Below are positions 40,421 to 41,478 of a stretch of 64,000 nucleotides of DNA, in pieces. Numbering within the stretch: the first letter of the stretch is position 1; each line of letters opens with the position of its first letter. Below the pieces are notes generated by a model that saw only the letters and a program-made list of their open reading frames with translations, did no database searches and was not told the DNA's origin. Origin of the DNA: a virus (taxonomy: Duplodnaviria > Caudoviricetes); IMG/VR virus record IMGVR_UViG_3300008259_002461; one strand, 5' to 3'. A program made the translations under genes and the position numbers.

Positions 40421-41257
40421 ATGGAAAACTATTCAAGTCCTCTTCAGAAGTATAAGAGGGAACCAAAATTGTTAATTGACTTACCCAGTAAGGGAAGTTT
40501 TTACCCTCGCAACGCACTAGAAAAGGCAACTGAACTTGAAGTGTACAGTATGACAGCCAGCGATGAAATGCGATTAAAAACTCCTGATGCACTTTATACA
40601 GGCAATGCTGTTGTTAATACAATTCAACGTTGTATACCCGGTATCAAGGACGCATGGGCCATGCCTGTAATTGATGTTGACTATGTGTTAGCTGCCATTA
40701 GATTGGCAACTTACGGTGAAAATATCACTATAAATTCAAAATGTCCTGAGTGTAGTAACGAAGATGCGTACGGTATTCCAATTCAATCTATACTTGATCA
40801 CTACAATTCAGTTAACTTTATAAACGAATTTAGAATTAACAATTTTATTTTTAGAATACGTCCGTTAAACTATAGAGAATTAACTGACATACAACAAAAA
40901 AGTTTTACTATTCAGCGACAACTTAATCAATACGTGTCACAAATAGACGACCAAGAAAAACAACAAGCTGAGGTTAATAGATTATTTGACGACATTAACT
41001 CTATTACTATCAACACTATACAAAAAGTTGTTGTTGAAATAACTACGCCTGACGGTGACAAAGAAATGCATCATCAGTTTATAGTTGACTTTTTAGAAAA
41101 CGGCGAAAAAGAGTATTTTGAAGAAACTAAAAAAGTTTACGAAACTAACTTAGAGAATTGGAACATTAAGCCTAGTAGTGTTGCGTGTAGTGCCTGTAGT
41201 CACGAATATAAAATATTACCAAACTTAGACTATTCAAGTTTTTTCGGTCGAGGCTAA
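40421..41257 (+). CDS. gp26: gp26-like baseplate hub/tail assembly chaperone (278 aa)
   Basis: LLIDLPSKG, MTASDEMRLKTPDAL, DVDYVLAAIRLATYG motifs; two CxxC pairs (CPEC, CSAC). Confidence 0.75.
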   Translation: MENYSSPLQKYKREPKLLIDLPSKGSFYPRNALEKATELEVYSMTASDEMRLKTPDALYTGNAVVNTIQRCIPGIKDAWAMPVIDVDYVLAAIRLATYGENITINSKCPECSNEDAYGIPIQSILDHYNSVNFINEFRINNFIFRIRPLNYRELTDIQQKSFTIQRQLNQYVSQIDDQEKQQAEVNRLFDDINSITINTIQKVVVEITTPDGDKEMHHQFIVDFLENGEKEYFEETKKVYETNLENWNIKPSSVACSACSHEYKILPNLDYSSFFGRG

Positions 41258-41478
41258 TTGAGACTCCGGACTCTGCATTACCTCAATTAGCCAAAGAATA
41301 CGAAAACGAAATTAAACAACTCAAGCACAACATCTATAAAATTTGTTGGTTCATGCGAGGCGGAGTTGCATCAGATGTATTATTCACTGACACAGATATG
41401 GATGACTTAATGATTCTTCATACTGTAATTGAAGAAAATATAGAGACTGCTAAAAAGACAGGAATGCCGTTAATCTAA
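41239..41478 (+). CDS. Unannotated -1 frame extension of the gp26-like gene (77 aa, RSRLIETP...ICWFMRGG...KKTGMPLI), probably reached by programmed frameshift
   Basis: Frame open 41212-41478 with no ATG until 41353; T TTT TTC at 41239-41245; 11-bp stem 41252-41262/41282-41292; stop overlaps the convergent gene end. Confidence 0.7.
   Translation, partial: FFRSRLIETPDSALPQLAKEYENEIKQLKHNIYKICWFMRGGVASDVLFTDTDMDDLMILHTVIEENIETAKKTGMPLI

What the first reader, a model, noticed from the sequence alone, without database searches (positions are those of the whole stretch)
41239..41478. Programmed -1 frameshift signal at the end of a T4 gp26-like gene (lambda G/GT-type chaperone pair)
Seen: slippery heptamer T TTT TTC (41239-41245) in frame with the last codons (S-F-F). 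After a 6-nt spacer comes a perfect 11-bp stem, GGCTAATTGAG (41252-62) with CTCAATTAGCC (41282-92), which contains the 0-frame TAA. The -1 frame is open for 77 more codons (RSRLIETPDSALPQLAKEYENEIKQLKHNIYKICWFMRGG...KKTGMPLI), has no upstream ATG of its own, and its stop overlaps the convergent gene end by 9 nt. Loop ACTCCG (41263-68) could also pair with CGGAGT (41361-66) as a long-range pseudoknot. Known: tail assembly chaperones next to tape-measure genes commonly make a short and a frameshifted long form (lambda G/GT); to my knowledge this is not described for T4 gp26. Inference: the gp26 family in this lineage is the tail assembly chaperone and makes 278-aa and ~352-aa forms.
Basis: partly seen in the sequence, partly recalled or inferred. 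Interest (0 to 1): 0.8.

Follow-up and report, generated by a model that had tools for sequence, protein, structure and literature searches.

The report
Frameshift makes two baseplate-hub chaperones
One tail-baseplate assembly gene of this uncultured freshwater giant T4-like phage very probably makes a short and a long protein, because some ribosomes slip back one base on a strictly conserved UUUUUUC run; phage T4 and a few relatives make the same pair from two separate genes (26 and 51).

Summary
The heptamer T TTT TTC (41239-45) lies in phase at the end of a 278-aa PF12322 (T4 gp26/gp51 family) gene. It is followed by a 6-nt spacer and an 11-bp hairpin, and the -1 frame stays open for 77 codons.

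Comparison makes a programmed -1 frameshift very likely:
- The same in-phase heptamer and a 62-80-codon -1 frame occur in 80 of 80 uncultured relatives and in 13 isolated phages, from RaK2-type and Atu_ph07 to a cyanophage.
- The -1 frame is under purifying selection from its first codon.
- It usually has no start codon of its own before codon 19 or 37.
- It folds confidently as a helical domain.

T4 gp51 is colinear with the transframe product, and T4 gp26 stops at the slip site. Three metagenomic lineages with the long form fused in frame have lost the heptamer. Each of them carries a separate short paralogue.

The lambda G/GT comparison holds as logic, not as homology. The proposed long-range pseudoknot is no better than chance.

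I found no published description. This scan had already noted the same signal on other DNA (42 notes, at least 40 genomes). No protein or ribosome data exist for this phage.

The parts
40375..40382 (+). T4-type late promoter motif TATAAATA, 38 nt before the start codon
   Evidence: Read directly. A gp55-like late sigma factor is encoded at 46504-47331. The promoter's function is inferred.
40421..41257 (+). 0-frame gene of the gp26/gp51 family (278 aa): the short form
   Evidence: Pfam PF12322 T4_baseplate, 52.6 bits against a cut-off of 24.5, E 6e-14. phrog_150 'baseplate hub', E 6e-15. AF2 model pLDDT 90.5. BFVD fold matches to 'baseplate hub / hub assembly' proteins, best E 5e-21.
41239..41245 (+). 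Slippery heptamer T TTT TTC in X XXY YYZ phase
   Evidence: Identical and in phase in 80 of 80 IMG/VR relatives and 11 of 13 isolates; the other two isolates have T TTT TTT. Codon usage alone predicts it with a mean probability of 0.11 per lineage, over 39 lineages.
41246..41251 (+). 6-nt spacer
41252..41292 (+). Stimulatory hairpin: 11-bp stem (41252-62 / 41282-92) with a 19-nt loop; the 0-frame stop TAA 41255-57 lies in the 5' arm
   Evidence: MFE -15.5 kcal/mol, z -2.07. Top 1% of in-gene controls. Ten of 11 pairs show changes on both sides across 15 clade members, covariation score 0.292 against 0.133 in shuffles (0 of 500 reach it), and all slid controls are lower.
41245..41478 (+). -1 frame extension, 77 codons plus stop: C-terminal domain of the long form (352 aa), positional equivalent of the C-terminal tail of T4 gp51
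   Evidence: Gapless alignment from codon 1 in 33 relatives. dN/dS 0.27 in codons 2-36, with dN below dS in 68 of 68 pairs; the other two frames are full of stops. AF2 pLDDT 92, helical. Ten natural in-frame fusions, E 1e-20 to 6e-26.
38135..40348 (-). Context: divergent 737-aa neighbour, a candidate tape-measure-like virion protein
   Evidence: Language-model neighbours are tape-measure families (scores 0.91-0.93; a weak lead). BLASTP finds no similarity to T4 gp29. The RaK2 orthologue is annotated TMP-like. The CBB orthologue CBB_251 was found in virions by mass spectrometry (PMC5259590).
41470..42525 (-). Context: convergent 351-aa gene of unknown family; its end overlaps the end of the extension by 9 nt
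   Evidence: No Pfam or PHROG hit.

Best explanation
The gene at 40421 encodes a baseplate-hub assembly protein of the T4 gp26/gp51 family. Most ribosomes terminate at TAA 41255 and give the 278-aa short form.

A fraction of ribosomes, with tRNA-Phe in both the P and A sites on UUU UUC, slip back one base on U UUU UUC. They are paused by the hairpin that begins 6 nt downstream. They then read CGG UCG AGG and so on in the -1 frame and add a 77-residue helical domain, giving a 352-aa long form (junction ...SSFF|RSRL...).

Both forms are needed for hub and tail assembly. The short form corresponds to T4 gp26 and the long form to T4 gp51.

Shown here: the signal, its conservation, purifying selection on the -1 frame, the in-frame natural fusions and the paired paralogues. 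Inferred: that slippage is ribosomal, its efficiency, and what each form binds.
For: 1. Universality. The in-phase T TTT TTY heptamer plus a -1 ORF of 62-80 codons is present in the window, in 13 isolated phages of very different groups (Atu_ph07, Phosso, Serratia BF, CBB, XbC2, RaK2, 121Q, Turkey5, SCTP-2, PA5oct, RAS14, Xoo-sp13, cyanophage Bellamy), and in 80 of 80 IMG/VR loci. Those loci were retrieved with patterns from the N-terminal half of the protein, so retrieval did not favour the junction.

2. Not explained by the amino acids. The codon before FF always ends in T although its residue varies (S, N, H, D, R, A). Codon usage predicts the heptamer at 0.11 per lineage, a joint probability near 1e-38 over 39 lineages if they are independent.

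3. The 0-frame tails after FF vary from 1 to 11 codons and are not conserved. The -1 frame aligns without gaps from its first codon.

4. In 68 of 79 distinct junctions there is no start codon upstream in the -1 frame. The first ATG is at codon 37 in 24 junctions, codon 19 in 16, codon 2 in only 11, and is absent in PA5oct. Yet codons 2-36 show dN/dS 0.27 and fold with pLDDT 92.

5. A hairpin starting 4-8 nt after the heptamer is in the top 5% of in-gene controls in 17 of 39 lineages (Wilcoxon p 2e-6). The window's stem covaries.

6. Rosetta-stone evidence. T4 gp51 matches PF12322 (E 4e-52) and phrog_150 over its full length. The cyanophage -1 ORF matches phrog_634 'hub assembly catalyst' (E 7e-28) and the C-terminal end of phrog_150. 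T4 gp51 aligns colinearly through the junction, and gp26 ends 3 residues after it.

7. Ten natural in-frame fusions of 336-368 aa exist. In the three whose DNA was read, the T TTT TTC phase is gone (EYF|R, NSF|R, and AAC TTT TTT CGC), and the other fusion proteins read EYF|R, EEF|K or FIF|R at the junction. Each of those three loci also carries a separate 272-294-aa short paralogue with no heptamer and no -1 ORF.

8. One pair of paralogues are sisters (100/100), and another pair nests among frameshift-type genes.

9. T4 gp26 and gp51 are both listed as hub assembly chaperones, and gp51 is absent from the particle (PMC3004832).
Against: - There is no direct evidence for this phage or any relative: no junction peptide, no ribosome profiling, no reporter assay.
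- The only RNA contig found covers 40727-40878, not the junction.
- About 8 of 39 lineages have no hairpin at the expected distance, so the stimulator is not universal.
- U UUU UUC is not among the most efficient bacterial slippery sites (my own knowledge).
- Similarity between the window-type extension and the T4 gp51 or cyanophage tail is not significant by hhalign. That link rests on position, colinearity and the shared heptamer.
- An insertion of one U by RNA polymerase on the T6 run would give the identical protein.
Confidence: 0.85

Rival explanations
1. Transcriptional slippage. RNA polymerase adds one extra U on the T6 run in a fraction of transcripts, and normal translation of those mRNAs gives the same 352-aa protein.
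For: The site is a homopolymer run, and the protein product would be identical. A distant relative (RM378) has a T7 run with the downstream ORF in the other frame, which a polymerase slip could also serve.
Against: Six T's is short for efficient slippage by bacterial RNA polymerase (my own knowledge). The run is kept at exactly six T's followed by C in 80 of 80 loci and in 11 of 13 isolates; RAS14 and Xoo-sp13 have seven T's followed by A. A hairpin at the canonical 4-8-nt distance downstream is enriched and covaries, which ribosomal frameshifting predicts and polymerase slippage does not. DNA contigs show no length variation.
Confidence: 0.07
2. Two separate genes. The 77-codon frame is translated on its own, by coupled re-initiation at the stop of the first gene or from an internal start such as ATG 41353.
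For: In 11 of 79 junctions an ATG sits at extension codon 2, overlapping the stop (ATGA or TAATG). Annotators call separate small ORFs in several phages.
Against: The window has no ATG, GTG or TTG before codon 37, and no Shine-Dalgarno sequence lies before ATG 41353. PA5oct has no start codon at all. Start positions are scattered from codon 2 to codon 57. Codons 2-36 are under purifying selection. This rival does not explain the invariant heptamer, nor the in-frame fusions paired with short paralogues.
Confidence: 0.04
3. The heptamer is only a by-product of a conserved x-F-F protein motif in AT-rich genomes, and the downstream frame is a decaying remnant or a chance ORF.
For: FF is conserved as amino acids even in T4 gp26 (EFF) and nearly so in gp51. 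TTT is the preferred Phe codon in many of these genomes.
Against: T4 gp26 and the short paralogue of L098 encode FF as TTC TTT, so the motif does not force the run. The -1 frame is open, of constant length, selected and foldable in all lineages.
Confidence: 0.01

Closest known systems
Phage T4 gp26 (208 aa) and gp51 (249 aa), baseplate hub assembly chaperones (Pfam PF12322; Leiman et al. 2010, PMC3004832)
   Same: Same protein family. gp26 ends 3 residues after the FF junction, like the short form. gp51 continues in frame through a helical tail that is colinear with the transframe product. Both are needed for hub assembly, and gp51 is not in the virion.
   Different: T4 uses two divergently transcribed paralogous genes and has no slippery site: FF is TTC TTT in gene 26. 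gp51 is in frame in at least 1375 Straboviridae records. The window has one gene plus a frameshift. Its body is about 70 residues longer and its extension about 30 residues longer than in T4.
Lambda gpG/gpGT and the conserved -1 frameshift of tail assembly chaperone genes in long-tailed phages (Levin et al. 1993; Xu, Hendrix and Duda 2004; also P2 E/E+E'; cited from my own knowledge and from the reference list of PMC9024508)
   Same: Two products share an N-terminus. The long one is made by a -1 slip near the end of the short ORF. Both serve as assembly factors for the tail's central, length-determining part, and both appear to be needed.
   Different: No sequence or fold relationship was detected. 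The gene is not immediately upstream of the tape-measure gene in the same orientation. The proteins act, in T4, at hub assembly. Binding partners are unknown.
Metagenomic two-gene relatives (L096, L097, L098)
   Same: Same family and same extension domain (E 1e-20 to 6e-26). Same neighbourhood: a T4-type portal gene in L096, and a gp46/SbcC-like nuclease gene in all three.
   Different: The long form is fused in frame and the T TTT TTC phase is lost. A separate short paralogue supplies the short form.

Membership tests
T4 gp26/gp51 family (Pfam PF12322 T4_baseplate; phrog_150) | Profile match above the curated cut-off | tested here: met
   52.6 bits against a cut-off of 24.5, residues 52-275. 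phrog_150, E 6e-15.
T4 gp26/gp51 family (Pfam PF12322 T4_baseplate; phrog_150) | Two CxxC pairs (zinc-ribbon-like) and a C-terminal FF motif | tested here: met
   C108/C111 and C256/C259 are conserved, and F274/F275 are invariant.
T4 gp26/gp51 family (Pfam PF12322 T4_baseplate; phrog_150) | Role in hub assembly without being a major virion component | not testable with these tools
   Indirect only. T4 data come from PMC3004832. CBB_250 and CBB_249 are not in the part of the published CBB virion mass-spectrometry table that I read (PMC5259590).
Programmed -1 ribosomal frameshift cassette | X XXY YYZ heptamer in phase with the 0 frame | tested here: met
   T TTT TTC at 41239-45. Conserved in 80 of 80 loci.
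Programmed -1 ribosomal frameshift cassette | Downstream RNA structure 5-9 nt after the heptamer | tested here: met
   6-nt spacer and 11-bp stem. Covariation in the clade. Enriched but not universal across lineages.
Programmed -1 ribosomal frameshift cassette | -1 ORF that is open from the slip site, lacks its own start and is conserved as protein | tested here: met
Programmed -1 ribosomal frameshift cassette | Transframe protein actually made; slippage on the ribosome rather than in transcription | not testable with these tools
   The only RNA contig misses the junction. No proteomic data.
Lambda gpG-type tail assembly chaperones (TAC) | Sequence or fold membership in a TAC family | tested here: inconclusive
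   No TAC family among the Pfam or PHROG hits. No PDB match by Foldseek or VIA-align. Weak AFDB hits to 140-aa Xylella prophage proteins of unknown role. A missing match does not exclude distant kinship.
Lambda gpG-type tail assembly chaperones (TAC) | Gene lies directly upstream of the tape-measure gene, between tube and tape-measure genes | tested here: not met
   The gene is divergent from a 737-aa protein that is only weakly tape-measure-like. No tube gene is adjacent.
Lambda gpG-type tail assembly chaperones (TAC) | Short and long forms made by a -1 frameshift near the 3' end | tested here: met
   Inferred from comparative evidence.

The most novel reading that the evidence does not exclude
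T4-type contractile tails use the same two-form chaperone principle as lambda G/GT, but with an unrelated protein family. On this reading the gp26-like body holds the tape-measure or hub protein, and the gp51-type extension recruits the next assembly partner. The short:long ratio is set by frameshift efficiency. The long-puzzling 'catalytic' gp51 of T4 would then simply be the long form, which several lineages have repeatedly hard-wired by gene duplication.
Probability: 0.4. Interest if true: 0.8.

Novelty: new variant of a known kind. Interest (0 to 1): 0.72.

Why it matters
- It would add a recoding event, unannotated in every record I inspected, to a core morphogenesis gene of a very large group of phages: RaK2-type and other giant phages, cyanophages, and many uncultured freshwater and marine T4-like phages. 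In GenBank records the extension is either missed or called as a small hypothetical ORF with arbitrary starts.
- It gives a concrete and testable meaning to T4 gp26 and gp51, whose roles in hub assembly have stayed unclear for decades: they would be the short and long forms of one ancestral chaperone.
- It offers a natural experiment, frameshift against duplicated genes, on why phages keep fixed ratios of two chaperone forms.
- It extends the 'conserved frameshift in tail assembly genes' rule to the T4 superfamily, which to my knowledge had no described example of it.

Tried and rejected
- Long-range pseudoknot (loop ACTCCG with CGGAGT 41361-66): 34.5% of shuffles give a complement at least as long, and relatives have no consistent equivalent. 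Rejected.
- blastn of the locus against isolated phages: no match. The search for related loci with the single protein: nothing. The 12-sequence alignment was too diverse; a 4-sequence alignment worked.
- hhalign of the extension profile against T4 gp51 and against the cyanophage tail: not significant.
- Pfam and PHROGs on the window's extension: no hit.
- Foldseek against PDB for the body and the extension, and VIA-align wide for the body: only generic helical-hairpin matches.
- AFDB Swiss-Prot: weak hits only.
- BLASTP of the 737-aa neighbour against T4 gp29: nothing. phmmer of the 737-aa neighbour and of gp26 against PDB sequences: nothing useful.
- No whole genome is held for this window.
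- RNA evidence: one metatranscriptome holds a 152-nt contig inside the gene but not over the junction. Contigs cannot show rare U insertions.
- Literature: seven completed full-text searches found no paper describing a frameshift in gp26/gp51-family genes. Subscription journals are not covered.

Full report
**The observation**

The window carries a 278-aa ORF at 40421-41257 on the plus strand. Its last codons are ...GAC TAT TCA AGT TTT TTC GGT CGA GGC TAA. T TTT TTC (41239-45) is therefore an X XXY YYZ heptamer in phase with the 0 frame.

Reading from 41245 in the -1 frame gives 77 codons (RSRLIETPDS...KKTGMPLI) up to TAA 41476-78. That stop overlaps the convergent 351-aa gene (41470-42525) by 9 nt.

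Six nucleotides after the heptamer comes a perfect 11-bp stem, 41252-62 with 41282-92. It folds at -15.5 kcal/mol with z = -2.07 and encloses the 0-frame stop. Upstream of the heptamer the -1 frame is closed after 11 codons without any start codon. Inside the extension the first ATG, GTG or TTG is codon 37, at 41353.

DNA contigs from other sequencing runs agree letter for letter across the T run. The 6-nt 'long-range pseudoknot' complement is matched by 34.5% of shuffles and is not kept in relatives.

**What the gene is**

The 278-aa protein is a member of Pfam PF12322 (T4_baseplate; 52.6 bits against a cut-off of 24.5) and of phrog_150, 'baseplate hub'.

The surroundings are those of a T4-superfamily giant phage:
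- portal gp20 at 36385-38133;
- gp46/gp47-like nuclease at 43666-46450;
- gp55-like late sigma factor at 46504-47331;
- baseplate wedge and gp5-like genes from 48203 onward, and very large fibre-like ORFs.

A T4-type late promoter motif, TATAAATA, sits at 40375-82. No whole genome is held for this window. The DNA is found complete in freshwater and lake metagenomes from several studies.

**Comparative test of the frameshift**

tblastn with the 77-aa frame hit Agrobacterium phage Atu_ph07 and Sinorhizobium phage Phosso directly behind their gp26-like genes. I then read the junctions of 13 isolated phages:
- T TTT TTC: Atu_ph07, Phosso, Serratia BF, CBB, XbC2, RaK2, 121Q, Turkey5, Salicola SCTP-2, Pseudomonas PA5oct and the cyanophage Bellamy.
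- T TTT TTT: Stenotrophomonas RAS14 and Xanthomonas Xoo-sp13.

In every case the heptamer is in phase, lies 6-36 nt before the stop, and is followed by a -1 ORF of 62-80 codons.

A scan of IMG/VR, using peptide patterns from the N-terminal half only, returned 80 loci at 31-54% identity. All 80 have the in-phase T TTT TTC and a -1 ORF of 75-78 codons wherever the contig covers it fully; one locus is cut by the contig end.

The residue before FF varies (S, N, H, D, R, A), but its codon always ends in T. From each gene's own codon usage, the heptamer is expected with a mean probability of 0.11 per lineage. Over 39 lineages with at most 60% identity in the extension, the joint probability is about 1e-38 if they are treated as independent.

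The 0-frame tails after FF are 1-11 codons long and unrelated to each other. The -1 frame aligns without gaps from its first codon.

Independent initiation does not fit the data:
- 68 of 79 distinct junctions have no start codon upstream in the -1 frame.
- The first ATG is at codon 37 in 24 junctions, codon 19 in 16, codon 2 in only 11, and nowhere in PA5oct.
- Codons 2-36 nevertheless show a median dN/dS of 0.27, with dN below dS in all 68 measurable pairs. The other two frames carry 40 and 58 stops.
- AlphaFold2 folds the extension from residue 1 as a helical domain with pLDDT 92, and the body with pLDDT 90.5.

**RNA structure**

A hairpin whose 5' arm starts 4-8 nt after the heptamer ranks in the top 5% of equivalent in-gene positions in 17 of 39 lineages, where about 2 are expected (Wilcoxon p 2e-6). 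About eight lineages have none.

Within the window's own clade (15 sequences, gapless) the window's stem is kept:
- 10 of 11 pairs show changes on both sides;
- the covariation score is 0.292 against 0.133 in shuffles (0 of 500 reach it);
- all slid controls are lower.

One caveat applies: the structure was derived from one member of that set.

**The link to T4**

T4 gene 26 (208 aa) ends ...EFFELL*, with FF encoded as TTC TTT. It has no heptamer and is followed directly by gene 25.

T4 gp51 (249 aa) is encoded next to gene 26 on the other strand. It matches PF12322 (E 4e-52) and phrog_150 over its whole length, so gp26 and gp51 are paralogues. The cyanophage -1 ORF is annotated 'baseplate hub assembly catalyst'. 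It matches phrog_634 (E 7e-28) and the last 40 positions of phrog_150, which correspond to the C-terminal tail of gp51.

In an alignment of the conceptual transframe products with both T4 proteins, gp51 runs colinearly through the junction and gp26 stops 3 residues after it.

The similarity between the window-type extension and the gp51 tail is not significant by hhalign. That equivalence rests on position, colinearity and the shared heptamer in the cyanophage.

**Natural in-frame fusions and their partners**

A profile of the extension found ten proteins of 336-368 aa that carry PF12322 plus the extension in one frame (E 1e-20 to 6e-26). Their protein junctions read EYF|R, NSF|R, EEF|K and FIF|R. 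In the three whose DNA I read, the T TTT TTC phase is lost, including one that reads AAC TTT TTT CGC.

In all three loci examined, a second PF12322 gene of 272-294 aa lies nearby, with no heptamer and no -1 ORF. This is the T4 arrangement again, in three different gene orders.

In a maximum-likelihood tree, one long/short pair are sisters (100/100). Another pair nests inside a well-supported clade of frameshift-type genes. The two-gene state therefore arose more than once from frameshift-type ancestors. In classical T4-likes, gp51 is in frame in at least 1375 records.

This pattern is what one expects if both a short and a long form are required. It is the strongest argument that single-gene phages make the long form by frameshifting.

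**Mechanism and rivals**

The most likely mechanism is a tandem -1 slip of two tRNA-Phe on U UUU UUC, stimulated in this phage by the hairpin. This step is inferred.

- Polymerase slippage on the T6 run would give the same protein and cannot be excluded. Against it stand the short and strictly kept run, and the conserved downstream hairpin at frameshift spacing.
- Separate translation of the small ORF, and a chance by-product of the FF motif, are both contradicted by the data above.

**Comparison with lambda G/GT**

The logic is the same: a short form, plus a C-terminally extended long form made by a -1 slip, both acting as assembly factors. T4 gp26 and gp51 are listed as hub assembly chaperones, and gp51 is not in the particle (PMC3004832). 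The CBB orthologues are absent from the part of the published virion protein list that I read, whereas the divergent neighbour is present (PMC5259590).

Membership in the TAC families is not shown:
- there is no TAC profile hit and no fold match;
- the body's fold is a widespread myovirus 'baseplate hub' fold with no solved relative;
- the gene lies divergent to a 737-aa virion protein that is tape-measure-like only by a weak language-model lead.

**Novelty**

Seven completed full-text searches and two jumbo-phage genome papers (CBB, Atu_ph07) gave no description of this frameshift. Subscription literature is not covered.

After I had reached my own reading, I looked at earlier notes of this scan. 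They show the same signal reported on other DNA (42 notes in at least 40 genomes), with the same interpretation. My tests here were independent of them.

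Noticed in passing
L014:2460-2700 (Rhodothermus phage RM378): The gp26-like gene ends TCC TTT TTT TGG (seven T's), and the following small ORF lies in the +1 frame, not the -1 frame. This could be a different recoding event, polymerase slippage or an independent start.
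   Followed up: no
GenBank MT409116.1 (Acinetobacter phage Octan), gp51 homologue: It is annotated 'tape measure protein assembly chaperone', which suggests that an annotator or pipeline already assigns a TAC-like role to gp51. The basis is unknown.
   Followed up: no
L001, L002, L006, L011 and other isolate records: The extension ORF is annotated inconsistently. Atu_ph07 gp687 starts at extension codon 37 and Phosso at codon 2, while RaK2 and PA5oct do not annotate it at all. In Yersinia phages fHe-Yen9-03 and -04 the gp26-like gene is labelled as a heavy-metal ATPase.
   Followed up: partly
L033 and L035, about 15 nt behind the hairpin: In these close relatives, 7-8 nt of the hairpin loop are complementary to a stretch 14-15 nt behind the stem (2.5% of shuffles for L035). 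An H-type pseudoknot is possible there; the window has no equivalent.
   Followed up: partly
window 38135-40348 (minus strand): The 737-aa divergent neighbour has no Pfam or PHROG family, but its language-model neighbours are tape-measure proteins. Orthologues are virion proteins in CBB and PA5oct. It is a candidate gp29 equivalent.
   Followed up: partly
window 40375-40382 and 46504-47331: A T4-type late promoter motif, TATAAATA, lies 38 nt before the gp26-like start codon. A gp55-like late sigma factor gene is also in the window.
   Followed up: no
window 40421-41478, in public sequencing runs: The stretch is held completely by freshwater, lake and 'fungus' metagenome runs from many studies, and partly by crustacean, estuary and freshwater runs. 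This is a widespread freshwater phage. One metatranscriptome holds a 152-nt piece of the gene.
   Followed up: partly
window 43007-43438 and 42505-43006: A SegE-type GIY-YIG homing endonuclease gene lies two genes downstream. I did not examine it.
   Followed up: no
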